64,000 bases of DNA, from positions 8,418 through 72,417 of IMG/VR virus record IMGVR_UViG_2561511128_000006; one strand, 5' to 3'. A program made the translations under genes and the position numbers. Below the pieces are notes generated by a model. The model had not been told where the DNA came from and searched no databases. It saw only the letters and a program-made list of their open reading frames with translations. Within the stretch, counting starts at the first letter, position 1. Each line of letters opens with the position of its first letter. The stretch is from a virus (taxonomy: Duplodnaviria; Caudoviricetes). Below are positions 8,133 to 54,303 of this stretch, piece after piece.

Positions 8133-8789
8133 CTAAACAAGCTGCCAAGTCCAAACGACTTTCCCAATAATGATGTTGTCGTATCCCTCATTAGAAACTT
8201 TCTGTGGTTTCCATCTGGGATTGTCTGAATGGAGGATAATATTACCATCCTCATCTTGCATAACTCTTTTAACAACCAAACCAAATGGGGGACGCTGTAC
8301 AAGGTAAATGCCGCCGTCCTCTAGTTCGTCGTCAAGAGGGATAACACCTACATAAGCCCCTTTTAAGATTGTAGGTTCCATACTGTCGCCAGTAACTTTA
8401 ACGGCACGAACATCGGGAAGATTATACTGAGGGAGAACAGGGATCATATTTTCTGGAGCGGTAGAAAAAAATTCAGCTGGTAGTCCGGCACCTGCTTCTT
8501 CAAAGACAGGTATCTCATGTAAGTTGTCCCCTGTTACGTTTTCAGTAGGAGAGTGACAGGCCATACGACGCATTACAGGATACCTTTCTTCATCCGGGAA
8601 AATCACCAATGCCCCCATAGCTGACAATATTTTTGATACCTTATCGAGCCCAAGTTGCTGGGCTTTGACCCCTAAAGCACGCGACAAGTTCGCCTGACTG
8701 ACGCCACATTTTTGAGCAAATGCAGCTATCTGGCGTTGATCTGAAATGTCCCTCAACCGAGCCATGAGTTTTTCTTCTAGTTCCATACG
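8133..8789 (-). CDS. cI: CI-like repressor (HTH + S24 autoproteolytic domain); exact start uncertain
   Basis: HTH GVSQANLSR; AGAG cleavage site; VTGDSMEP (Ser) and VKR (Lys); divergent from cro. Confidence 0.92.
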   Translation of the reverse strand, partial: RMELEEKLMARLRDISDQRQIAAFAQKCGVSQANLSRALGVKAQQLGLDKVSKILSAMGALVIFPDEERYPVMRRMACHSPTENVTGDNLHEIPVFEEAGAGLPAEFFSTAPENMIPVLPQYNLPDVRAVKVTGDSMEPTILKGAYVGVIPLDDELEDGGIYLVQRPPFGLVVKRVMQDEDGNIILHSDNPRWKPQKVSNEGYDNIIIGKVVWTWQLV

Positions 8790-8843
8790 TTCCTGCATAC
8801 GATACTGAGGACAAAAAGTCATCTTTCGTAAATGTAATTTTAC

Positions 8844-8872
8844 TTGCATATAGATACGTATATGTATATACT
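8844..8872 (+). promoter_or_regulatory. pR-like promoter, cro probably leaderless
   Basis: TTGCAT-17-TATACT, ATG 6 nt after the -10 box with no SD. Confidence 0.75.
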
Positions 8873-18865: not shown

Positions 18866-19612
18866 TTAGAGTCCTGCTTCTTGACATCTTTCCTTCACAA
18901 AAGGGTTCTCGTTACCTTGTAGTCTTTCAATACGTCTGGCCCGCGTGCATTCCCACGCATCAACCGGATACATCTTGTCCCATGCGTCCATGAGCTGCGT
19001 CTGCTGGCGGCTCATGCGGTAGCGCGGGGCATAGGCGTCGGCCATATACTTGTAGGTCCGGGCAATCTGTCCCCTCGCTCTGATAGGCGGCTCGGCCCTG
19101 CGGTCGGCGATCTTCATCCCGCAGCTTCCGAAGTCCGGCTCCTCGCCCGGCAACATCTGAAAGTTGTAGTTCTGGCGTAGGGCATTCACCGCGCCGATGG
19201 CCGGATACAGATTGTACAGGTCAGCCTGCATGAGCCTGTATTCCCGGCTGACCTTCTCGGCGCACTTGCGGCCTTTGAACGCCTTTCCCCTGTTGTCCAC
19301 GCACTGCGCGTCGCCCTCGCGCCACTCCGCGAACGCCTGCCCGAAGTTCTCGGCGGGGACCACGTGTTCCCATTCCACCTTCCCGGCCCGCTTCTCGTGC
19401 TTCGCGGCAGTAAAACCCTCCGGCAGGGTGACGTTCTTCTTCTCGTCGAACGCCGCCCCGCAGTAGAGCGTGATCCGATGGTCATAATAGACCTGCCGTT
19501 CCAGCGTCTTCTTGGCCTTGCTGAACGAATCGTTCCATTCGTTGCCCGCGGCCTGCGCCTCGGACGTCATAACCAGCGCGGCCAGCAGAAACACCATGAT
19601 GCTTTTGTACAT
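18866..19612 (-). CDS. Secreted endonuclease I (EndA/Vvn/Dns family)
   Basis: Signal peptide, TLYCG, VEWEHVVPA, DLYNLYPAIGAVN, RGQIARTYKYM, GNENPF. Confidence 0.93.
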   Translation of the reverse strand: MYKSIMVFLLAALVMTSEAQAAGNEWNDSFSKAKKTLERQVYYDHRITLYCGAAFDEKKNVTLPEGFTAAKHEKRAGKVEWEHVVPAENFGQAFAEWREGDAQCVDNRGKAFKGRKCAEKVSREYRLMQADLYNLYPAIGAVNALRQNYNFQMLPGEEPDFGSCGMKIADRRAEPPIRARGQIARTYKYMADAYAPRYRMSRQQTQLMDAWDKMYPVDAWECTRARRIERLQGNENPFVKERCQEAGL

Positions 19613-26551: not shown

Positions 26552-27478
26552 CTATCCTAGCATCAACCTGTTCGCGGTCTTCGCGGCACGGATGGCCGCT
26601 CTCATTTCCGAGATTCCCGCGTCAATCCACGTCTGGGCGTTGTACGAGTTGGACTGTAGGATGCCGAGAAGCGGATCCTTCGAGATGTTCTGCTGGGAAC
26701 ATACCCGGTTCAGCAGTTCGGGATAAGTGCTCTCCTTGACGCGCAAGAGCTCGTTGACGAATCGGTGGAGCCGGGAGCGGGTTTCCCCCGCGAATTCGAT
26801 CCATTCCTCTTCGAGGCGGTCGAGGGCCGCGATGCGGGCGGCGTAGACGCTGGAGGCGGGAAGCGCAGGGTACGGAATCGCGGATTCCGCCGTGGGTATG
26901 GCATTGATGGCGCGGACACGGACGGAAAGCAGGAACTCGCGGGCCTCGGGCATAAGCCGGGCCGGGAGCTGACTGTATTCCGCGATGCGGAAGTGGCGGT
27001 TGTGCTTCGCCCATATCTCGGCGCGGGCCTTGCCCTGCACGGCGGCGGGGTATGTCGAGAGCTTGGCGTCTACGATGAGCTTGAGCTCGGCACGTTCCGC
27101 CGCACTGATCAGCTCGTCGTTGAGCGTCACAGGCTGTTCAACGGGCACCCTGTCGCCGTACTGCTCGATGACGTCCAGCACCCACTTGCGGAATGCCTTT
27201 GCTACCGGAGTCCGGGCGAACATGGCGAGGAGGTGGCAGCCGCGAAGTGAGAAGATGCGGGCGCGACCCTCAGCCCCGTTTTGGGGCTGTGCGGTAATTT
27301 CAACTAGTTGCGTCATGTCTGGCGTGAATTCATCGGCGTTATTTCGGTAAAGACGCGAAACTTGATTTTCGCGTCCATACCCAAGAGCTCGTGCGAGTTC
27401 TGTAGCGCGAATCCAAGGCTGATTGCCGCGAGTTATGGGGGAGAAAGTGAAATCGTTGAAGCAAAGAGAATGAGACAT
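26552..27478 (-). CDS. BRO-N-domain antirepressor (copy A)
   Basis: ELARALGY...RIFSLRGCHLLAMFARTPVAKAFRKWVLDV; AGGAG RBS before MSHSLCF. Confidence 0.88.
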   Translation of the reverse strand: MSHSLCFNDFTFSPITRGNQPWIRATELARALGYGRENQVSRLYRNNADEFTPDMTQLVEITAQPQNGAEGRARIFSLRGCHLLAMFARTPVAKAFRKWVLDVIEQYGDRVPVEQPVTLNDELISAAERAELKLIVDAKLSTYPAAVQGKARAEIWAKHNRHFRIAEYSQLPARLMPEAREFLLSVRVRAINAIPTAESAIPYPALPASSVYAARIAALDRLEEEWIEFAGETRSRLHRFVNELLRVKESTYPELLNRVCSQQNISKDPLLGILQSNSYNAQTWIDAGISEMRAAIRAAKTANRLMLG

Positions 27479-27521
27479 AACCAACTCCTACTGTTAAGAG
27501 TTGGCATCGCCGATGAATGAC

Positions 27522-27603
27522 GATGCCGGGTGTTCATCACCGCCAGTAGGAGCGGCTCCCTGCCTTTAGCTTACGCTTGGACATATCAGGGACACCCGGC
27601 ATC
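27522..27603 (-). ncRNA. C4-like antisense RNA (copy A), about 82 nt
   Basis: 12-bp closing stem GATGCCGGGTGT/ACACCCGGCATC; loop CCTACTG and segment GTGATGAAC complementary to flanking targets. Confidence 0.72.
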
Positions 27604-27835
27604 AGGAAGATGCAAGTATAGCAGAAAACCAAAGTCAAAAAGAGTCTTGACTTCGGCAAAAGGGCACAAAAAGAGCCATACTATCGGGTGGCGTTGTCCG
27701 CCTACTGTTGGTGTGATGAGCACCGTAGAAAAAAGACAGCACAAAACGCGAAAAATGTAAAGAGAAAAGCAGTGGCGTTGCCCGCATCTGGATGTTCTTC
27801 ATCTGCATTGGCGGACAACGCCACGTTGGAAAGTT

Positions 27836-28906
27836 TTACTTGTTATCGTATTTCAAGGCCGTAGCCCGGATTCGATCCGCAAAGGGGATAATATCTTCCA
27901 GTTTTTCGATGTCTTCCTTTGCGTCCTTATTCTCCCCATCAAACAGTCCGACCCTCCACTGTTTTCCGTTGAAATACAGGCGGCACAGAGGCTTGAGCCT
28001 GTTGTCGTCAAGAAGGATGGAGCAGTAGCTGATGCTGTCCCGCATGGCTACGCGCCCCGGATCAACGGTGCCCATCAGAAGCGATTTGACAAGGTAATAC
28101 GCCTCTTTTTCTTCCTCGGTGGTGACTATACGCGAATCCTGCTCTTTTCCTTGTGGGGTATCTTCGGACTCTATCTCTACAATTTCCGGTTTCTGCTGCG
28201 TCATGGCATTTTTCAATCGGTCGTTGATGCGGTCGTTGATGAACTGGTCAAGCGCAGCGGTAAGGATTGGAGTGAAGCGATCCAGAACGTTTTGCGTGAT
28301 ACGCCCATCATACGTCTGTCCGATGAAAAAGCGTGCGAAATCTTCGTGGGGCGTTTCCATTTGTTCGGACATGAGGCGTTTGAACTCTCGGTTGTACTTG
28401 AGTTCGTTTGCCGCGCTCATGCAGGCATCCCGATCAAACTTGCCTTTTGCCAACTTGCGCAGTTCCGGGAGCAACATTTCATCCATATCGTCAAGGACGA
28501 ACTCCATATAGGGCTTGCTGTCCATTTTGTTGGCTGTTTCAAGATCGGAATAGAACCGGTAACGGTTGCCGTCCGTCAGGATGGCAATGGGGGCTTCCGT
28601 CCCGTGGAAGTAAAGCTGTAGCTGGTTGCAGTGCTTCATGTCGAGAGACGTGCCCAAAGCCTTGCACTCCAGAAGAAGGATAGGCTTGCCGTCCACAAGA
28701 ATCGCATAGTCCACGCGGGCGTCCTTATATTCGCCGATGGGGGCTGAAAATTCGGGCACGACTTCCGCAGGGTTGAAAACGTCGTATCCCAGGGCCGCGA
28801 TGAAAGGCATCACCAAGGCGTTTTTCGTGGCCTCTTCGGTCTTGAGGCTATCTCCCAGATTCTTTACCTTTTTCGACAATTCAGCAATTCTTTCCGAAAA
28901 ATCCAT
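27836..28906 (-). CDS. HsdR N-terminal-like PD-(D/E)XK nuclease-domain protein
   Basis: EEATKNAL..PF..ALGYDVFNP.EV.PE, RVDYAI, LLECK, ILTDG; no helicase motifs. Confidence 0.85.
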   Translation of the reverse strand: MDFSERIAELSKKVKNLGDSLKTEEATKNALVMPFIAALGYDVFNPAEVVPEFSAPIGEYKDARVDYAILVDGKPILLLECKALGTSLDMKHCNQLQLYFHGTEAPIAILTDGNRYRFYSDLETANKMDSKPYMEFVLDDMDEMLLPELRKLAKGKFDRDACMSAANELKYNREFKRLMSEQMETPHEDFARFFIGQTYDGRITQNVLDRFTPILTAALDQFINDRINDRLKNAMTQQKPEIVEIESEDTPQGKEQDSRIVTTEEEKEAYYLVKSLLMGTVDPGRVAMRDSISYCSILLDDNRLKPLCRLYFNGKQWRVGLFDGENKDAKEDIEKLEDIIPFADRIRATALKYDNK

Positions 28907-28938
28907 TGCACTCCCCCTTAAAAAATCATGTATTGAGG

Positions 28939-29931
28939 TTATTTCTGTAACTCTTTTAGATAATTGGGAACATATTCATGGACAGACTCTTTTCCGGGAA
29001 TTTTCATTGAGATCATATCCCCTTTTTGTCCTTTTCCATAAGCGCGGGCCGTAACAATTTTTACGGCTCCATTCGCATCAAAAAAGTTTTCCAACGCACG
29101 GATACCCGAATTTGAAATTCTGCGGGTATCCATTTCGTTAAGAGGACTGGGGAAAACCAAAGCTATTGCGCACCAATTCTTTGAATTTTTTTCAAAAACC
29201 AGTTTATAGCCCCCAAGTTTGGAGTACGTAGGTAAGGATTTCTTTATGAAAGTCTCAATGTCTTTCTGCGTCCATGTATAATTGTATTCGGGGGCCTTTG
29301 GTCGGCACTCTTCGTGCCCAATGCGCCAGAAGGTATCGGCTTGCTCCCAGTCTTTGACTGTTTTAATTTTTTCACAGTCAGGGCTTAAGTTTTTTGCTCT
29401 ATTTGTGGAATTGGTATTTTGGGGCGCGATTCCTTCTGGGTGCCTTGAGTTGAGCCATGCCCCTGCAACTACCAAGCAAACGAATAGAACCAGTAATTTT
29501 TTTGCTTTGCTTGGCTTTTTTTTGTTTTGCTGTGCAAATGGGGTTGGTTTTCCACGCTCTTGGGCCAATTGTTCATCAAAAAGGTGTGCGCGGATAACCT
29601 CCATCATGGGGCTATTCACCTTTGCCAATGCCTTATTTCCATTTTTGAACTCAATAATGACGGTAGACTCAGTCGTCTTGCCTCCAGCTACCGCACCCGC
29701 AACCGCTCCGATGCCTCCAAGCAAGACGCCGCCGACAAGTGCGCCTCCCAAAGTTCCGCCGAGCTTTTTGACCGATTCTTCATTGGCTACTTCGCAAGAG
29801 GCAATACTGGAAAGAAAAAGTTCCTTTGCTCCAAACATTTTTGAAGAGCAACGCAACTGGTTTTTATTTTTAATGTAAATATATTCTTCTTTCCCGTAGT
29901 CCCCTGCCAGAAATTTGATGTAGGTAGCCAT
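28939..29931 (-). CDS. AT-rich membrane-anchored accessory protein
   Basis: Gly-rich GGALVGG segment, central TM after a basic patch, periplasmic-type C-terminus. Confidence 0.75.
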   Translation of the reverse strand: MATYIKFLAGDYGKEEYIYIKNKNQLRCSSKMFGAKELFLSSIASCEVANEESVKKLGGTLGGALVGGVLLGGIGAVAGAVAGGKTTESTVIIEFKNGNKALAKVNSPMMEVIRAHLFDEQLAQERGKPTPFAQQNKKKPSKAKKLLVLFVCLVVAGAWLNSRHPEGIAPQNTNSTNRAKNLSPDCEKIKTVKDWEQADTFWRIGHEECRPKAPEYNYTWTQKDIETFIKKSLPTYSKLGGYKLVFEKNSKNWCAIALVFPSPLNEMDTRRISNSGIRALENFFDANGAVKIVTARAYGKGQKGDMISMKIPGKESVHEYVPNYLKELQK

Positions 29932-46682: not shown

Positions 46683-46728
46683 AAGTGCCGCCAAGCATCA
46701 TTAAGTGCTTGGCGGCACTTCTTTTTTG
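46683..46728 (+). terminator. Long hairpin terminator after the tRNA fragment
   Basis: AAGTGCCGCCAAGCA/TGCTTGGCGGCACTT + CTTTTTTG. Confidence 0.75.
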
Positions 46729-46795
46729 CCCCTTTCAGGGGCTTTTTTCGTGTTGCCGAATGCCGTTGAGTGAAGTTGACAGCCGCGATTTTTTT

Positions 46796-46842
46796 GGGGC
46801 AACAATAGGGGCAACTATCTACTATACCCATGGAGTTGCCCC
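46796..46842. repeat. GGGGCAAC x2 direct + 1 inverted, candidate arm-type sites of integrase 2
   Basis: 46796-46803, 46808-46815, GTTGCCCC 46835-46842. Confidence 0.6.
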
Positions 46843-46843
46843 A

Positions 46844-48022
46844 ATGCCTCTGACAGATACGCGGATCAAAGCAGCCAAGCCCACGGATAAGGTCTACAAG
46901 ATTTATGATGCCGAAGGGTTGTACATTGAAGTCCCGCCGAACGGCAGCAAGCGGTGGCGGTTCAAATACAGGATAAACGGCAAAGAAAAACGGATCAGCC
47001 TCGGTATCTATCCCGAGATTGGTTTAAAGGATGCGCGGGAAAAACGTGATGAAGCCCGAAGGCAGGTTGCGGCGGGCCGGGACCCCAGCGTCATAAAAAA
47101 CAAGACTGCATATGCGGAGAAAACCTTTCAGCACATAGCCGACGAATGGGTTGCGCTTCATCGGGCAACATGGGCTCCGCGTCATACGGAAACGGTCGAG
47201 CAAAGGCTGAGAAGCTACATTTATCCGGAACTTGGCAATGTCCCTTTGAAGGACATTACCCCGATTGAAGTCCTGAGCGTGATCAAGGCGATTGAAAAGA
47301 GGGGAGCTTTGGAGGCGGCCCGCAGGACACTCGCGATCTGCTCGCAGGTTTTTCGATATGGAGTCGCTTCGGCACTTATCCCCAGTGACCCCTGTCGGGA
47401 CCTTAGGGGAGCACTTGCGCCACGGGAAGAGGGGCATTTTCCGGCATTGGTGGATCGGGATGGCGCAACGGCAGTGATGCGGGCGATCCATCATTATAAA
47501 GGATCGGCTGTTGTCCGATTGGCGTTGCGTGTGCAGGCTCTGACCTTCGTACGCCCCGGCGAGTTGCGGTGGGCGAAGTGGCCGGAGTTCGATATGGCGG
47601 GTGCGCTCTGGGTGATTCCCGCAGAGCGCATGAAGATGAAGCGGGAACACTGGGTTCCCTTGTCAAGGCAGGTATTGGAGATTCTGGAGGAGCTGCATGA
47701 GATCACAGGTCATCGGGAGTACCTGTTCCCGTCGATGCGGGCGAGAAAGGATGTGCCCATTTCTGAGAACACGCTCAACGCAGCACTCAAGAGTTTGGGC
47801 TTTGACGGCATCCATGTGGCGCACGGTTTTCGGGCGATGGCTTCAAGCCTTCTGAATGAAATGGGCTGGCGCCCGGATGTCATCGAGCGCCAGCTTTCGC
47901 ATGTTGAAGAAAACAAGGTGCGTGCAGCGTACAACCGGGCGGAGTACATTACCGAGCGCCGCCAAATGATGCAGGCTTGGTCTGATTTTCTCGTTGGGTT
48001 GGCTTCCACTTCCCCGCAATAA
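46844..48022 (+). CDS. int: Tyrosine integrase, P4/IntA-like with arm-binding domain
   Basis: MPLTDTRIK..KP..K.YK..D..GLY; R(PGEL), HGFR, QLSH, AYN catalytic motifs. Confidence 0.96.
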   Translation: MPLTDTRIKAAKPTDKVYKIYDAEGLYIEVPPNGSKRWRFKYRINGKEKRISLGIYPEIGLKDAREKRDEARRQVAAGRDPSVIKNKTAYAEKTFQHIADEWVALHRATWAPRHTETVEQRLRSYIYPELGNVPLKDITPIEVLSVIKAIEKRGALEAARRTLAICSQVFRYGVASALIPSDPCRDLRGALAPREEGHFPALVDRDGATAVMRAIHHYKGSAVVRLALRVQALTFVRPGELRWAKWPEFDMAGALWVIPAERMKMKREHWVPLSRQVLEILEELHEITGHREYLFPSMRARKDVPISENTLNAALKSLGFDGIHVAHGFRAMASSLLNEMGWRPDVIERQLSHVEENKVRAAYNRAEYITERRQMMQAWSDFLVGLASTSPQ

Positions 48023-48979: not shown

Positions 48980-49864
48980 TTATGCGAGCTTGCGCAGTGC
49001 GAGCGCGGCCTGGAGCGATGACTGCGCCAGCCCGAGGCTGTACCAGGCGGCGTTGATGTGGTGTTTGATGGCCTTCTCGACTTCAAACGGAACCGAGCCG
49101 ATGCCGCTCAGTTCCCTGCGCACGGTGATATGCGTCCAGTTTTCAGTACCGTCGAGGGCGAAGAGGGCTTTTTCGATGTCGGCGAACAGGCGTTCCGTGG
49201 CGGGGAGGCCGGGGAGCCTTTGGGGAACGGGGCGGCGGGTGACGACTTCCGGCACGGTGGACAGGGTGTCCAGAATGTTCCGCCATGCGTCCGTCTGGCG
49301 GGCAGCGTAGCTCTGGGAGAGGAAGATGATCCCCTCGCGGGAAACCATATACTGCGGGCAGCGCTGGCCCTTGGCGTCTACATAGTTCCCCCTGACGAAA
49401 GCGTCCCGTTGCGGGCAGACGGCGGCGGCGCGGCTTATGGCGTCGAGCACGGTGGAGTGGCGCTTATGCAGCTCTCCGGCGATGGTGCGGGAGGAGATGC
49501 GGGAGAGGGTGCCTGTGGGTGGCGTCTGGGCATCGACGGGCACCCTGTCGCCGTACCGTTCGATGACGTCGAGAACCCACTTGCGGAACGCCTTGGCGAC
49601 GGGTGTCCGGGCGAACATGGCGAGGAGGTGGCAGCCGCGGAGGGAGAAGATGCGGGTCATGACGGGAATTCCCGTGGTACTCGAATTGATGACCACGCTC
49701 ATATCATTGGAAAATTCATCTTCATTGCGGCGGTAAATATTGGCAACCGCCTTTTCGGAAGAATATCCCAAGGCACGGGCAAGTTCAGAAGACTTGAACC
49801 AAGGCTGGTTGTCGCGGGTGACGGGGGAGAAGGTGAACTCATTGAAGCAGAGGGCTTGTGACAT
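48980..49864 (-). CDS. BRO-N + Rha-domain antirepressor (copy B)
   Basis: N-terminus paralogous to 26552-27478; SSR.IA...KRH..VL..I and YVD.KG...PQY...R.G Rha motifs. Confidence 0.88.
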   Translation of the reverse strand: MSQALCFNEFTFSPVTRDNQPWFKSSELARALGYSSEKAVANIYRRNEDEFSNDMSVVINSSTTGIPVMTRIFSLRGCHLLAMFARTPVAKAFRKWVLDVIERYGDRVPVDAQTPPTGTLSRISSRTIAGELHKRHSTVLDAISRAAAVCPQRDAFVRGNYVDAKGQRCPQYMVSREGIIFLSQSYAARQTDAWRNILDTLSTVPEVVTRRPVPQRLPGLPATERLFADIEKALFALDGTENWTHITVRRELSGIGSVPFEVEKAIKHHINAAWYSLGLAQSSLQAALALRKLA

Positions 49865-49914
49865 GATGCAACTCCTACGGATAAAAAAGAGTTGGCATCG
49901 CCTACGAATAGCGA

Positions 49915-49994
49915 ATGCCGGGTGTTCGTAACCGCCCGTAGGTGCGGCTCCCTGCCTTTAGCTTACGCTTGGACATATCAGGGACACCCGGCAT
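49915..49994 (-). ncRNA. C4-like antisense RNA (copy B), about 80 nt
   Basis: Closing stem ATGCCGGGTGT/ACACCCGGCAT; loop CCTACGG and segment GTTACGAAC. Confidence 0.72.
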
Positions 49995-50165
49995 CAAGAG
50001 GATGCAAGTATAGCAGGAAACCAAAGTCAAAAAGAATCTTGACTTTGTCAAAAAGGCACAAAAAGAGCCATACTATCGGGTGGCGTTGTCCGCCTACGGG
50101 AAAAGGTGTTACGAGCACCGTAACCAGACAACGCCACAAAAATGGGGTAATGTCAAGGGTAAATA

Positions 50166-51062
50166 TCAACTGCAATATGGAATAGAAGATCTGGATACAG
50201 TTATCTTGTCTAGATTGAATCCATTGTGCACAAGAAAATATTTAAGTTCATCTTCTTTTATTGTACAACATGGTCCTAGTATAATTTCATGGATAGATTC
50301 TTCTAGGTACTTAAATTCAAAATATGGAATTAAATTATCTTGAGTTGCATAGAATTTCAAATCTCCTATTTCTTGATATGTATCACTATGTTCTTCGTCA
50401 GCCCATGTACAATTTTTGTAATTATTTATATCATTTTTGTATGTATCATTTATTATTTTATTAATACTTGTTCCGTATTTCATACTTTTAATACCTAGCG
50501 GTATAAATACTATTCTTGATTCTTCTTCCTCTATGAATCCATTGTGTTTTAATAGCGATGCTTCTTTTATTATATTTATTATATTTATGTAATATGATTC
50601 TAATATTGTTGGTTTAGAAAAATTTTTATATATATCATTAATTATAACATTGATATCATGTTTATTTTTGTCAATATAGCTTTCATTGTCATAACAAACT
50701 TTTTCATAGAATAAATTATGGTATTTTAAATTAAATTTAAATCCTATTGATATGCCTCTTCCATCGTTACCGTATGCTCTCCATTGACTAAGCTTATCTC
50801 CTTTTTTAGAAAAACAAGATATAAAAACATCTGTTTTTAAAAAATAATCAATTACAATATTTTTATTTATTCTCTTTATATTTGTTTGTTTAGTGTCTTC
50901 CTTGTATAAAATATCTATTTTTTTCTCTATATAATCTAATAATAATTTCAATTCTTTTTTGTCATTCTGGTGATAGGCTGATGTAAGGCGTAGTTTTTTA
51001 CTTTCGATAATTTTTTGAAAAACATCAATACTTCTATACTGATACATAGTTTCATTTTTCAT
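50166..51062 (-). CDS. DUF2971-family protein
   Basis: LRLT...NDKKE, FISCFS...DKLSQWRAY...GISIGF, K...F.EEEESR, IILGP; extremely AT-rich. Confidence 0.85.
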   Translation of the reverse strand: MKNETMYQYRSIDVFQKIIESKKLRLTSAYHQNDKKELKLLLDYIEKKIDILYKEDTKQTNIKRINKNIVIDYFLKTDVFISCFSKKGDKLSQWRAYGNDGRGISIGFKFNLKYHNLFYEKVCYDNESYIDKNKHDINVIINDIYKNFSKPTILESYYINIINIIKEASLLKHNGFIEEEESRIVFIPLGIKSMKYGTSINKIINDTYKNDINNYKNCTWADEEHSDTYQEIGDLKFYATQDNLIPYFEFKYLEESIHEIILGPCCTIKEDELKYFLVHNGFNLDKITVSRSSIPYCS

Positions 51063-51078
51063 TTTACTTACTCAATGT

Positions 51079-51339
51079 TTAATAATGATACCGACATTGC
51101 AACACGATCAACGTGTCACTTCGCTCATCCAGTTTATAGGCGAGGCGCTCTTCCTGATTGATACGGCGCGACCAGCATCCGGCAAGATCGAAGCGTAGCG
51201 GCTCCGGCTTGCCGAGTCCTTTAAAAGGGGAACACAGCGCGTCATGCAAAAGTTCGTTGATGCGTTTTACCGTGCGCTTGTCGATATGTTGCCAGTATAG
51301 ATAGTCTTCCCACGCCTGCGGCGTCCATGTGAGCCGCAT
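51079..51339 (-). CDS. yoeB: YoeB/Txe toxin
   Basis: AWEDYLYWQ..DK, PFKGLGKPEPL...LAGCWSRRIN.E.RL.Y, RYHY. Confidence 0.95.
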   Translation of the reverse strand: MRLTWTPQAWEDYLYWQHIDKRTVKRINELLHDALCSPFKGLGKPEPLRFDLAGCWSRRINQEERLAYKLDERSDTLIVLQCRYHY

Positions 51340-51593
51340 CAGTCCACCATCTCATGCGCCGTAGTTGCGCCGGTATTGGCGGCGCTCAGAGAGTCCCGCA
51401 GGCGAGAGGCATTGGCTGGCGAGCGCAACAGATAGGCGGTTTCCATGATGCTGTTGTAATCCTCCAGAGACATCATGACCACGGAAGGCGACTTCTGGCG
51501 GGTGATGATGACCGCTTCGTGATGGTCGCAGACTCGGTTCATAGTGTCTGCAAGGTTCTGGCGGGCTTTGGAATAGGTAATGGCCTGAGACAT
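51339..51593 (-). CDS. yefM: YefM/Phd antitoxin
   Basis: TYSKARQNL...V.D...VIITR...VMMSLEDYNSI.ET.YLLRSPANA. Confidence 0.95.
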   Translation of the reverse strand: MSQAITYSKARQNLADTMNRVCDHHEAVIITRQKSPSVVMMSLEDYNSIMETAYLLRSPANASRLRDSLSAANTGATTAHEMVD

Positions 51594-51609
51594 GGCAATC
51601 TCCTATTTT

Positions 51610-51644
51610 TGTACAAATATATGTACGTAACAAGGGCAGGTCAA
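51610..51644 (-). promoter_or_regulatory. yefM-yoeB promoter/operator
   Basis: TTGACC-17-TATATT flanked by TGTACA (51610) and TGTACG (51622) cores 12 bp apart. Confidence 0.75.
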
Positions 51645-51793
51645 GCCAAATAAAAGGCGATAGGGTAGTGGGAAAGTCAAGGCGGCGGGGGACGAAAAAG
51701 CCACTCACGGTGGAAGGGCTTGGGGGAGTTTTCAAATTTGAAGTATACGGATACTCTGTTTTTAAGACAAAACTTATAGAAGAGGGATTGAAC

Positions 51794-53353
51794 ATGGATT
51801 TACATTCGTTGGTAAAAGATTTCAGTACCACGCCATTCCTCTTTGTGGGGTCTGGTTTTTCACGGAGATATTACGATCTTCCCGACTGGGAAGGGCTTTT
51901 GAAGATTTTTGTCCAAAGATTAAGTGGTGATGAATTCGCCTTCAACAAGTATACAAGTACGGCTGAAAGCCTCATCAACTCCGGAAGAGAAGGAGTTCGA
52001 CTTGCCGTTGTAGCAGGACTTGTCATGCAGGATTTTGACAAACGCTGGTATGAGGAGCCATCTTTCAGACAGGTGAAAGATGACTATAAGCCGTTTGTAA
52101 AGAACGGTCAGTCACCATTCAAGGTGGAGATAGCCCAATATATTGATGAGCATTCAATTCCTGTGGAGAACATGCGTGATGAGTTGGCAAAACTAAAGGA
52201 ACTTTCCAACCGTAGTTTGGCTGGTATCATTACCACGAATTATGATCGCCTTCTTGAGGTGGAAACGGAAGGCTATAAATCCTTTGTAGGGCAAGAAGAA
52301 CTTATTTTTTCGGCACTTCAGGGTTGGGCGGAAATATACAAAATACATGGTTCCGTTACCGATCCAAGCACTATTCTTATTACTGACAAAGATTATAGAG
52401 AATTTAAGGAGTTCAGCCCTTATCTTACAGCAAAACTCATGACGATATTTATGGAATATCCTATCATATTTATGGGGTATTCCTTGACTGATCCCAATAT
52501 CCGCATCATATTGGAAGATCTCGGAAAATGCTTATCAAAGAAAAATCTCGAAAAGCTTCAGAGTCGTTTTATTTATGTTGAGCATAAAAGGGGACAGGAG
52601 GATGTGGAGCTTTTTGAACATTCTGTAGCAATCGGTGATGACCATATCCATATGACTGGAATCAGAACAGATAATTTTATGGCGATTTATGAAGCCCTTG
52701 GGGATAAGCGGGCTTCTCTTCCTGCCAAGCTTATTCGTATGTTCAAGCAAGAATTCTACACTTTTGCATTAACTAATGAACCTACGGCTAGAATGCGTGT
52801 GGCTGCTATTGATGACGAAAGGGTAGGGGATGAAGAACTTGTACTTGGAATTGGAAAGTCTTCAGAGTTTGCCTTAAAGGGGCTGTCCGGAATGACGTCA
52901 AGAGAATGGTATCAACATGTCGTTCTGCATGATCTGGAGTTTACTGCCGATGATATTTTAACATATGCTTTCCCGTCCCTATATAGAGCTAATAATGTAT
53001 TACCATTGAATATGTTGCTAAAAGAAGCTGCGGGAAATTATCCAGAGTGTATAGAATGTAGATGTACAAATTTTGATGATATAATTAATGGAAGACATAA
53101 AAAAAATAGAAATAGAAAACATATACCTGCAAGAAGTGTTAACGGAATTGTTGAAACATTCCATAATGATACGCATAAAATTATATACGAAATACCTTAT
53201 CTCAATGAATCTGAAATAGATGTGGATGAGTTAGAGAACTACCTGATAAACTTTTTCCGCCAAAGGGGGGCTTACGACAACCTAAACAGCAATGAAAGAT
53301 CGGATATGAATAGGTTGGTGCGGATATTCGATTACTTGAAATATGGCAGATGA
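51794..53353 (+). CDS. SIR2-like domain protein (candidate NADase)
   Basis: PFLFVGSGFSRRY...W, IITTNYD, IYKIHGS, IIFMGYSLTD; AT-rich. Confidence 0.9.
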   Translation: MDLHSLVKDFSTTPFLFVGSGFSRRYYDLPDWEGLLKIFVQRLSGDEFAFNKYTSTAESLINSGREGVRLAVVAGLVMQDFDKRWYEEPSFRQVKDDYKPFVKNGQSPFKVEIAQYIDEHSIPVENMRDELAKLKELSNRSLAGIITTNYDRLLEVETEGYKSFVGQEELIFSALQGWAEIYKIHGSVTDPSTILITDKDYREFKEFSPYLTAKLMTIFMEYPIIFMGYSLTDPNIRIILEDLGKCLSKKNLEKLQSRFIYVEHKRGQEDVELFEHSVAIGDDHIHMTGIRTDNFMAIYEALGDKRASLPAKLIRMFKQEFYTFALTNEPTARMRVAAIDDERVGDEELVLGIGKSSEFALKGLSGMTSREWYQHVVLHDLEFTADDILTYAFPSLYRANNVLPLNMLLKEAAGNYPECIECRCTNFDDIINGRHKKNRNRKHIPARSVNGIVETFHNDTHKIIYEIPYLNESEIDVDELENYLINFFRQRGAYDNLNSNERSDMNRLVRIFDYLKYGR

Positions 53354-53598: not shown

Positions 53599-54216
53599 CT
53601 ATAGCACCCTTCCAAACCACCGCACCCGTCCGTAGACACGGAAAGCTTCAAGGTCGGGACCTTCCACCGCTACGTCCGCGAAATCGCGGTTTTCCGAGCG
53701 CAGAAGCCAGCCGCGGGCCGTGCGCTGGAGACGCTTGACCAAAAGCTCCTCACCGAGGCCAACGAGAAAGATTTTGCCGTCGCTCGGTTCCTTGACCGAC
53801 TGATCCACGAGTATGGTGTCCTTGTGGCGGATGAGCGGTTCCATGCTGTTGCCTATGACGTCGAGCATGACGGATTCCTTGGAGTGGATGCCCACGCGGT
53901 TCAGGAAGTCGCGGCGGAAGGCGTAATACCCGAGTACTTCGTCGGACGTGATCAGGGACGAACCCGCTCCGGCCCGTGCGGTCACCTTCGGAACCATGTC
54001 ATACCCCTCGAGACGTTCACCATGTTCCGGGACGTCAATTCCCATGAGATCAAGGGCTTTTCCCAGTTCGTTGAGCGTAGGTGTGCGATCCCCGAGAAGC
54101 CAGCGGCGCAGCGTGTGCGGGTTGATGCCAAAGTAGGATCCGGCAGCCGTTACATTGCCGTTGAACTCGCGTTCGACGTAATTTTTCAAAATGTGGAGGA
54201 TTTTTTCTGCGTACAT
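53599..54216 (-). CDS. cI: CI-like repressor of prophage 2 (HTH + S24)
   Basis: GINPHTLRRW HTH, ARAGAG, VIGNSMEP, LVKR. Confidence 0.92.
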   Translation of the reverse strand: MYAEKILHILKNYVEREFNGNVTAAGSYFGINPHTLRRWLLGDRTPTLNELGKALDLMGIDVPEHGERLEGYDMVPKVTARAGAGSSLITSDEVLGYYAFRRDFLNRVGIHSKESVMLDVIGNSMEPLIRHKDTILVDQSVKEPSDGKIFLVGLGEELLVKRLQRTARGWLLRSENRDFADVAVEGPDLEAFRVYGRVRWFGRVL

Positions 54217-54236
54217 GGGATAATTGTATGGAAACA

Positions 54237-54303
54237 ATTGACATATGTCAATTTGACTAAGAGAGATTTTTGTCTTGCATTTAGTTTGACAATAGTCAAT
54301 AAT
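54237..54303. promoter_or_regulatory. Prophage 2 switch region: two TTGAC-N4-GTCAA operators and pR
   Basis: ATTGACATATGTCAAT (54237-54252), TTGACAATAGTCAA (54286-54299); TTGCAT-17-AATAAT. Confidence 0.72.

What the first reader, a model, noticed from the sequence alone, without database searches (positions are those of the whole stretch)
49869..50140. Second C4-like switch with fully compensatory changes: two RNA-encoded immunity specificities in one genome
Seen: this region aligns with 27481-27730, yet the recognition elements change in concert. Loop CCTACTG becomes CCTACGG (49936-49942), with both targets changed (49874-49880 at the SD; 50093-50099 upstream). Segment GTGATGAAC becomes GTTACGAAC (49924-49932), with both targets changed (49903-49908; 50108-50115). 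Six sites covary while the scaffold stays nearly constant. Known: P1 versus P7 heteroimmunity arises from such C4 loop/target differences. Inference: direct natural evidence of function, and of orthogonal antisense 'addresses' that stop one prophage's RNA from silencing the other's antirepressor. This is the strongest structural signal in the window.
Basis: partly seen in the sequence, partly recalled or inferred. Interest (0 to 1): 0.82.

Follow-up and report, generated by a model that had tools for sequence, protein, structure and literature searches.

The report
C4-type antisense RNA guarding antirepressor
Each of two neighbouring prophages in this gut sulfate-reducer genome carries a small antisense RNA, built like the phage P1 c4 immunity RNA, whose two recognition segments and all four of their target sites have changed together, so each prophage has its own RNA "address" for silencing its antirepressor gene; this is a known kind of switch in a lineage that the RNA databases do not yet capture.

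Summary
On the minus strand, 49862-50156 and 27476-27760 hold the same cassette. Its parts, in order, are a leader with two target boxes, an ~82-nt RNA (closing stem plus two hairpins), two more target boxes with the second on the Shine-Dalgarno sequence, and a Bro-N antirepressor gene.

The two RNAs differ at four bases, all inside the two recognition segments. Three of these changes are compensated at both cognate target boxes.

A third copy with a third loop address lies on another contig. At least three Rfam sRNA-Xcc1-class modules with the same layout are also present.

In 33 distinct homologues, all from Desulfovibrionaceae, I counted 31 addresses. All four target boxes match the cognate RNA in 23 of 33 modules, against 4 of 1056 non-cognate pairs.

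The topology matches the annotated P1 immI region, and P1 versus P7 shows the same compensatory pattern. No Rfam model (C4, c4-a1b1, sRNA-Xcc1) reaches its threshold on these copies.

Verdict: a real, divergent member of the C4/sRNA-Xcc1 antisense class. Full orthogonality of A and B is plausible but unproven, because RNA A keeps 7 bp on B's ribosome-binding site.

This scan has already reported c4-like/sRNA-Xcc1 modules on other genomes.

The parts
49912..49997 (-). Copy B: C4-like antisense RNA core. A 12-bp closing stem encloses hairpin 1 and hairpin 2.
   Evidence: Fold z = -4.0. CM R1 scores 102.3 bits. Covariation in 33 distinct homologues.
49936..49943 (-). Copy B loop recognition segment in the hairpin-2 loop.
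49924..49932 (-). Copy B single-stranded recognition segment 3' of hairpin 2.
49903..49908 (-). Copy B downstream target of the single-stranded segment (b2).
   Evidence: Exact 6-nt complement.
49872..49880 (-). Copy B downstream target of the loop segment (a2), overlapping the Shine-Dalgarno AGGAG. It sits in the loop and 3' arm of a local hairpin.
48980..49864 (-). Antirepressor B: Bro-N N-terminal domain plus a Rha-type domain.
   Evidence: Pfam PF02498 at 2.9e-13 and PF09669 at 7e-07.
50093..50100 (-). Copy B upstream target of the loop segment (a1).
   Evidence: 8-nt exact complement.
50108..50115 (-). Copy B upstream target of the single-stranded segment (b1), flanked by a conserved GGTG/CACC stem.
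50057..50093 (-). Copy B leader block shared with P1: a small hairpin, a CCGATA box and a T-run (terminator-like).
   Evidence: Collinear local alignment with the P1 leader; 8-18 of 2000 shuffles score as high.
50022..50047 (-). Copy B 12-13-bp inverted repeat. It is either an RNA hairpin (terminator-like) or an operator.
   Evidence: The motif occurs only at the two modules in the window. The scan flags it as terminator-like in copy A. It folds in the leader.
50007..50015 (-). Copy B extended -10-like box (TGCTATACT) just upstream of the RNA core.
   Evidence: Read from the sequence. The position is conserved in most homologues. The consensus scan does not call it.
50151..50156 (-). Copy B conserved TTGACA box upstream of the leader.
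   Evidence: Conserved in nearly all 33 homologues. No canonical -10 was found.
27520..27605 (-). Copy A: C4-like antisense RNA core. Loop segment at 27544-27552; single-stranded segment at 27532-27540.
   Evidence: CM R1 scores 105.4 bits. Alignment.
27485..27518 (-). Copy A downstream targets: b2 at 27513-27518 and a2/SD at 27485-27493.
27701..27719 (-). Copy A upstream targets: a1 at 27701-27707 and b1 at 27713-27719.
26552..27478 (-). Antirepressor A. Its Bro-N N-terminus is 66% identical to B over 114 aa; the C-terminal parts are unrelated.
8133..8849 (-). CI-type repressor of prophage 1, the presumed target of antirepressor A (inference).
   Evidence: PHROG 4 and PHROG 6201.
53599..54237 (-). 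CI-type repressor of prophage 2, the presumed target of antirepressor B (inference).
   Evidence: PHROG 4 and PHROG 6201. Only 31% identity to CI no. 1, over 85 aa.

Best explanation
Each cassette is a P1-c4-type antisense immunity module.

Proposed mechanism:
- A leader transcript on the minus strand contains an ~82-nt RNA that folds on its own into a closing stem, hairpin 1 and hairpin 2.
- Two exposed segments of this RNA pair with two boxes just downstream. The segments are the hairpin-2 loop and the single strand 3' of it.
- The loop-complementary box covers the Shine-Dalgarno sequence of the antirepressor gene. RNA binding therefore blocks ribosome entry and keeps the antirepressor off in the lysogen.
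- The same RNA would silence an incoming phage that carries the same address.
- The same two boxes are repeated in the upstream leader, displayed in small hairpins and followed by a T-run. They most likely act as a competing or decoy partner of the RNA.
- The address is set by about 7-9 plus 6-8 nucleotides. Prophages in one cell carry different addresses, so control of each antirepressor is largely private.

Shown here: fold, covariation, four-site cognate complementarity, SD overlap, P1-like topology, two separate prophages.

Inferred: trans action, translational block, decoy role of the upstream boxes, processing of the RNA, and degree of orthogonality.
For: Anatomy and fold:
- The RNA folds autonomously, alone and within the 271-nt leader, with z about -4.
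- In 33 distinct cores, 95.9% of cells pair, against 83.5% in shuffles and 35-51% in slid controls. Twelve of 22 pairs show changes on both sides, and 0 of 500 shuffles reach this.
- G-U pairs occur only on this strand.

Address matching:
- There are 31 different addresses among 33 modules.
- All four boxes match in 23 of 33 cognate cases, against 4 of 1056 non-cognate cases. Those four are two pairs of modules that share one address.
- For 30 of 33 RNAs, their own flanks are the best match.
- Within this genome, cognate loop duplexes are -10 to -16 kcal/mol, mostly stronger than non-cognate ones.

Link to P1:
- P1's annotated immI region has the same order and the same seed-to-box assignments.
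- P1 and P7 differ by compensatory changes at all six sites.
- The leader block after the upstream boxes aligns collinearly with P1.

Context:
- Eight of 10 sampled downstream genes are antirepressor-type: Bro-N, Rha, ORF6N or P22_AR_N.
- The two copies lie in two prophages with different CI repressors.

Background on c4 is taken from PMC12197685 (which cites Citron and Schuster 1990) and from PMC7313666 (c4 RNA upstream of Bro-N genes in APSE phages).
Against: - There are no expression data.
- No Rfam model reaches its gathering score on these copies. The best is sRNA-Xcc1 at 30.7 bits against a cut-off of 53.
- My covariance model does not find P1 c4 (6.2 bits).
- There is no icd-like leader ORF, so P1's coupling of translation to Rho termination cannot apply as such.
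- No canonical sigma-70 promoter is called on the RNA strand.
- The single-stranded segment discriminates poorly in duplex energies. RNA A keeps 7 contiguous pairs on B's SD box: -11.9 kcal/mol against -13.1 for B's own RNA.
- Ten of 33 modules lack one or more of the four matches at my thresholds.
Confidence: 0.85

Rival explanations
1. The cassette is a purely cis-acting leader switch. Within one transcript the recognition segments pair either with the upstream boxes (SD free, gene on) or with the downstream boxes (SD blocked, gene off). It would then be a riboregulator of one gene, not a diffusible immunity factor, and the different addresses would have no role between prophages.
For: All parts lie on one strand within about 290 nt. 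Both box pairs covary with the RNA, which a cis switch explains equally well. An own -10-like box and a hairpin between the leader and the RNA are present in only some homologues.
Against: In the predicted fold of the whole leader, the RNA domain folds by itself and pairs with neither box set. The homologous P1 RNA is known to act in trans (PMC12197685). A purely cis-acting element gives no reason for addresses to diversify to 31 of 33.
Confidence: 0.1
2. The repeated boxes are DNA sites for a sequence-specific protein, as direct and inverted copies of an operator. The apparent RNA complementarity would be a by-product.
For: The boxes are short repeats near promoter-like elements. A separate perfect inverted repeat lies in the leader.
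Against: The box sequences change freely between modules while the adjacent Bro-N domain stays similar, so no co-varying protein is at hand. The stems of the RNA show compensatory changes and G-U pairs that work only as RNA on this strand. One box always covers the SD.
Confidence: 0.02
3. It is a free-standing trans-acting sRNA of the sRNA-Xcc1 type that regulates host genes, such as virulence or stress genes, and only happens to lie next to antirepressor genes.
For: The nearest Rfam family is sRNA-Xcc1. The literature treats that family as a virulence-linked trans-acting sRNA (PMC2996969, PMC12189769).
Against: The best complement of each RNA is in its own flanks in 30 of 33 cases. Bona fide sRNA-Xcc1 hits in this genome have the same box layout in front of Rha-type genes.
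Confidence: 0.03

Closest known systems
c4 antisense RNA and the immI operon of phages P1 and P7 (Rfam C4 RF01695, leader motif c4-a1b1 RF03163)
   Same: The RNA has a closing stem with two hairpins. The hairpin-2 loop pairs with the box on the ribosome-binding site, and the 3' single strand pairs with the other box. Both boxes are duplicated upstream in the same order. All parts lie on one strand, followed by an antirepressor. Specificity changes arise through compensatory changes at six sites. The leader block after the upstream boxes is alignable.
   Different: There is no icd-like ORF between the boxes and the antirepressor. The antirepressor is a Bro-N/Rha type rather than Ant1/2. A-C and many homologues carry an extra hairpin and a -10-like box between the leader and the RNA. 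The host prophages are lambdoid with CI/S24 repressors in Desulfovibrionaceae. Both Rfam models fail to score these copies, and my model fails on P1.
sRNA-Xcc1 (Rfam RF02221; Xanthomonas integron cassettes, Xylella islands)
   Same: The three-helix architecture is the same. There is reciprocal weak similarity: RF02221 gives 30.7 bits on copy B, and my model gives 23-30 bits on RF02221 hits. True RF02221 hits in this genome have the same four-box layout upstream of Rha-type genes.
   Different: Scores are below the family's gathering cut-off of 53 bits, and none of 19 subfamily members passes. The sequence of hairpin 1 differs. The literature describes sRNA-Xcc1 as a virulence-linked trans sRNA, not as an immunity RNA.
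c4-family sRNA upstream of a Bro-N gene in APSE phages of Hamiltonella (PMC7313666)
   Same: c4-type recognition segments are complementary to the region upstream of a Bro-N domain gene, with no P1-type Ant.
   Different: Those RNAs score as Rfam C4 and are in Gammaproteobacteria. Multiple addresses within one genome were not described there.
CI RNA of satellite phage P4 (seqA / seqB / seqC)
   Same: A small RNA is cut from the leader, and its target sequence is repeated both upstream and downstream of it on the same transcript. It serves as the immunity factor. This comparison rests on my own knowledge.
   Different: P4 CI acts by premature transcription termination, not at an SD. I could not test any sequence or fold relationship here.
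IsrK of Gifsy-1 (Rfam RF01394)
   Same: A prophage sRNA of the C4-like class next to antirepressor/antiterminator genes (PMC12197685).
   Different: IsrK is reported to activate translation of a downstream ORF. Here the loop box covers the SD, which predicts repression.

Membership tests
P1/P7 c4 antisense RNA (immI) | Small RNA of about 77-90 nt with a closing stem that encloses two hairpins | tested here: met
   Folds. Covariation of all three helices in 33 homologues.
P1/P7 c4 antisense RNA (immI) | Two exposed segments complementary to two boxes downstream, one covering the ribosome-binding site of the first downstream ORF | tested here: met
   The same seed-to-box assignment as in annotated P1.
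P1/P7 c4 antisense RNA (immI) | The same two boxes repeated upstream of the RNA (a1, b1) | tested here: met
   The leader is alignable with P1.
P1/P7 c4 antisense RNA (immI) | Antirepressor gene controlled through a short upstream ORF (icd) by translational coupling | tested here: not met
   The SD box is followed directly by the Bro-N gene's start codon. There is no intervening ORF.
P1/P7 c4 antisense RNA (immI) | Score at or above the Rfam gathering threshold of RF01695 | tested here: not met
   No hit in the window. The best hit in the genome is 16.7 bits, elsewhere.
P1/P7 c4 antisense RNA (immI) | RNA released from the precursor by RNase P and acting in trans as the immunity factor | not testable with these tools
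   Needs RNA mapping and genetics.
c4-a1b1 leader motif (RF03163) | Score at or above the gathering threshold of 46.7 bits | tested here: not met
   No hit on the modules in E-value mode or in the genome-wide search.
sRNA-Xcc1 (RF02221) | Score at or above the gathering threshold of 53 bits | tested here: not met
   Copy B scores 30.7 bits at E = 0.003. Copy A has no hit. None of 19 homologues passes. Three other loci of the genome do pass.
sRNA-Xcc1 (RF02221) | Closing stem plus two hairpins, with a variable hairpin-2 loop | tested here: met
   cmscan alignment to the full model, positions 1-87. My model finds RF02221 loci at 23-30 bits.

The most novel reading that the evidence does not exclude
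The upstream boxes belong to a separately terminated decoy RNA that titrates the antisense RNA. Each prophage would then run a private three-part RNA circuit of decoy, repressor and target. A single cell would hold six or more such address-coded channels, and the C4 and sRNA-Xcc1 families would be one superfamily of mobile-element immunity RNAs. The dozens of natural addresses would form a ready-made set of orthogonal translational repressors.
Probability: 0.3. Interest if true: 0.7.

Novelty: new member of a known kind. Interest (0 to 1): 0.5.

Why it matters
- It extends the P1 c4 mechanism, studied in one pair of E. coli phages, to lambdoid prophages of gut Desulfovibrionaceae (probably Bilophila).
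- It supplies a large natural compensation experiment: 31 addresses on a near-constant scaffold, with both the downstream and the upstream boxes tracking the RNA.
- The upstream boxes have had only a "putative" role since P1 was annotated. Their covariation here shows that pairing with them is under selection.
- This subfamily sits between Rfam C4 and sRNA-Xcc1 and is captured by neither. Prophage immunity RNAs are therefore under-annotated, and sRNA-Xcc1 hits next to antirepressor genes deserve an immunity reading.
- In practice, such modules predict which co-resident or incoming phages can cross-silence one another.

Tried and rejected
Searches that gave nothing:
- Rfam at gathering thresholds gave no hit on the window or on 19 homologues. 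The only hit was a neighbouring sRNA-Xcc1-type element in L014.
- RF01695 and RF03163 searched genome-wide gave only noise away from the modules.
- blastn of copy B against 50,697 phage records gave no match.
- My covariance model run on the P1 immI region gave no hit, so the link to P1 rests on anatomy and on the leader alignment.

Promoters:
- The sigma-70 consensus scan calls no promoter on the RNA strand.
- The TTGACA box and the TGCTATACT box are therefore proposals from conservation only.

Readings considered and set aside:
- The 12-13-bp inverted repeat in the leader could be a DNA operator. G-U-compatible variants in homologues and the terminator-like call in copy A favour an RNA hairpin. 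This stays unresolved.
- A coding reading of the leader (65-aa ORF at 49978-50175) was rejected, because homologues differ there by indels that are not multiples of three.

Results that did not support a claim:
- The weakest sRNA-Xcc1-type locus, on contig C112 (48.5 bits), shows no cognate downstream box within 80 nt, so it is not counted as an intact module.
- Distinct addresses within a genome were seen in all 8 same-genome pairs. This is not evidence of selection for orthogonality, because random pairs are almost always distinct too.

Full report
**1. Observation**

The element is on the minus strand.

Between the antirepressor start codon and the far upstream box, copies A and B differ by 23 substitutions in 245 aligned positions.
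- Nine of these lie in the 44 nt of the six named sites (Fisher p = 0.01).
- All nine are compensatory. One loop change and two changes in the single-stranded segment are each matched at an upstream and a downstream box.
- Within the RNA core there are four differences, and all lie in the two recognition segments.
- The fourth difference (49943) is uncompensated and shortens B's loop duplex from 9 to 7 bp.

**2. Anatomy of copy B on the RNA strand**

| Part | Coordinates |
|---|---|
| Conserved TTGACA box | 50156-50151 |
| Box b1 | 50115-50108 |
| Box a1 | 50100-50093 |
| Small hairpin, CCGATA box and T-run | 50093-50057 |
| 12-13-bp hairpin / inverted repeat | 50047-50022 |
| TGCTATACT box | 50015-50007 |
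| RNA core | 49997-49912 |
| Box b2 | 49908-49903 |
| Box a2 on the AGGAG Shine-Dalgarno | 49880-49872 |
| Start codon of a Bro-N/Rha protein | 49864 |

The protein assignment is from Pfam.

The core folds into a 12-bp closing stem, hairpin 1 and hairpin 2, with z = -4.0. It keeps this fold inside the 271-nt leader. There, the SD box lies in the loop and 3' arm of its own hairpin, an arrangement suited to loop-loop contact.

**3. More copies in the same genome**

- A DNA search of the window's own assembly finds a third copy on another contig.
- It has the same single-stranded segment as A. Its loop address (CCTAGTT) is a third one, matched at both of its boxes.
- It also carries compensatory changes in hairpin 1.
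- The downstream gene is Rha-type.

The genome also has three hits above threshold, and one just below, to Rfam sRNA-Xcc1.
- Two of them lie in tandem upstream of genes whose products begin with Rha-like N-termini.
- The three above-threshold loci show the same layout of upstream boxes, RNA and SD box, each with its own address.

The genome therefore holds at least six intact modules.

**4. Homologues and statistics**

Collection of homologues:
- A BLAST search of 400 genomes of the same family found matches in 22.
- I built a covariance model from four cores. It recovered 24 strong hits in those loci.
- It recovered 25 more among 73 loci from a pattern scan of 185,579 species genomes.
- True hits carry almost only Desulfovibrio, Bilophila, Mailhella or Desulfovibrionaceae labels.
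- One Bilophila record matches the hit from a genome of the window's own genus in score and span. The host is therefore probably Bilophila (inference).
- A sample of 147 genomes from other families of the phylum gave no hit.

Intramolecular structure, on 33 distinct cores:
- 95.9% of cells pair, against 83.5% in shuffles and 35-51% in slid controls.
- Twelve of 22 pairs change on both sides.

Inter-segment test on the same 33 modules:
- There are 31 different addresses.
- All four boxes match the cognate RNA in 23 of 33 modules, against 4 of 1056 non-cognate combinations. Those four are two pairs of modules that share an address.
- 30 of 33 RNAs find their best match in their own flanks.

Downstream genes sampled:
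- Three are Bro-N, three Rha, one ORF6N and one P22 antirepressor N-domain.
- One is an ATP-dependent DNA ligase and one is unknown.

**5. Context**

The window holds two adjacent lambdoid prophages.

- **Prophage 1:** CI-type repressor (8133-8849), replication genes, terminase, portal, protease and capsid. Module A lies between the capsid and tail genes. The tail genes run to about 46 kb.
- **Prophage 2:** starts with an integrase (46685-48022). It continues with module B, a low-GC island (DUF2971, RelE-type toxin with antitoxin, SIR2-like), its own CI-type repressor (53599-54237), a Sak4-like protein, a helicase and a primase.

The two repressors share only 31% identity over 85 aa. The two antirepressors share the Bro-N N-terminus (66% identity) but have unrelated C-terminal parts.

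**6. Comparison with P1 and P7**

The annotated P1 record gives this order: C1 operator, two promoters, a1, b1, c4 (77 nt), a2, b2 on the icd ribosome-binding site, icd, ant.
- P1 c4 folds into a closing stem with two hairpins.
- Its hairpin-2 loop is complementary to b1 and b2. The single strand 3' of it is complementary to a1 and a2.

P1 and P7 differ by two bases in each recognition segment, with all four boxes compensating. The A/B pair (one compensated loop change plus two in the single strand) and the A/C pair (two in the loop, none in the single strand) are natural equivalents.

The leader just after the loop-complementary upstream box aligns collinearly with P1, including a shared GCGGACAAC, a CCGATA box and the T-run. 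Only 8-18 of 2000 shuffles score as high.

Differences from P1:
- There is no icd.
- The antirepressor is of a different type.
- Many homologues have an extra hairpin and a -10-like box before the RNA.
- No Rfam model passes its threshold. The nearest is sRNA-Xcc1 at 30.7 bits.

**7. Mechanism and its limits**

By homology of layout, the RNA most likely blocks translation of the antirepressor by pairing with the SD box. The second pairing site would add affinity and specificity. The upstream boxes most likely compete for the RNA.

Orthogonality is only partly supported by predicted duplex energies.

| RNA on target | Loop duplex (kcal/mol) | Cognate value (kcal/mol) |
|---|---|---|
| RNA B on A's SD box | -7.3 | -15.7 |
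| RNA A on B's SD box | -11.9 (7 contiguous pairs kept) | -13.1 |

Discrimination of A on B would therefore rest on two mismatches in the shorter second site. Expression, RNA ends, trans action and cross-immunity remain untested.

**8. Literature and earlier scan notes**

- Reviews describe c4 only for P1 and P7 (PMC12197685).
- Weinberg et al. listed c4 and c4-a1b1 motifs in Proteobacteria and phages (PMC2864571).
- An APSE study noted c4 segments matching the region upstream of a Bro-N gene (PMC7313666).
- Papers on sRNA-Xcc1 treat it as a virulence-linked sRNA. One lists tandem sRNA-Xcc1, C4 and isrK hits in Xylella without an immunity reading (PMC12189769).
- Earlier notes of this scan report c4-like/sRNA-Xcc1 modules on several other genomes, so the kind is not new to the scan.

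What this locus adds:
- a subfamily that no Rfam model captures;
- three near-isogenic scaffolds with different addresses in one genome;
- a 33-module covariation set that includes the upstream boxes.

Noticed in passing
L005:1380-1625 and L005:1990-2240 (own genome, contig C29, about 24 kb from copy C); L007:1380-1625 (contig C145): Bona fide Rfam sRNA-Xcc1 hits (57-60 bits) have the full c4-like layout: upstream boxes, RNA, and a box on the SD. Each has its own address. Two of them lie in tandem, upstream of genes whose products begin with Rha-like N-termini (read by eye, no Pfam run). This supports reading sRNA-Xcc1 as part of the c4 class.
   Followed up: partly
L019:618-1609: In one Desulfovibrionaceae homologue, the complete module sits in front of an ATP-dependent DNA ligase gene instead of an antirepressor. 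All four boxes are matched and the score is 95 bits.
   Followed up: partly
window 50166-53353: A low-GC island (38-43% against about 59%) lies between module B and the CI gene of prophage 2. It holds a DUF2971 protein, a RelE-type toxin with antitoxin, and a SIR2-like protein. It looks like a defence-gene hotspot.
   Followed up: partly
window 27771-27826: Just upstream of module A, right after the stop of the HSDR_N-domain gene, is a hairpin whose arms repeat the GTGGCGTTGTC / GACAACGCCAC arms that flank the upstream boxes in copies B and C. Copy A itself has a degraded 5' arm. It could be a displaced arm or a terminator built from the same repeat.
   Followed up: no
window 27836-29931: Two minus-strand genes with lower GC are inserted with module A between the capsid and tail modules of prophage 1. 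One is an HSDR_N-domain protein and the other matches no family. This is a moron-like block.
   Followed up: partly
window 18866-19612: An Endonuclease I (EndA-type) gene lies on the opposite strand between the terminase and portal genes of prophage 1.
   Followed up: partly
alignment of 33 leaders, e.g. window 50151-50156 and 27755-27760: A TTGACA box is conserved about 40 nt upstream of the first target box in nearly all homologues, but no canonical -10 follows at 16-18 nt. A conserved T-rich box ending in ATG or GTG follows instead. How the leader is transcribed is unexplained.
   Followed up: partly
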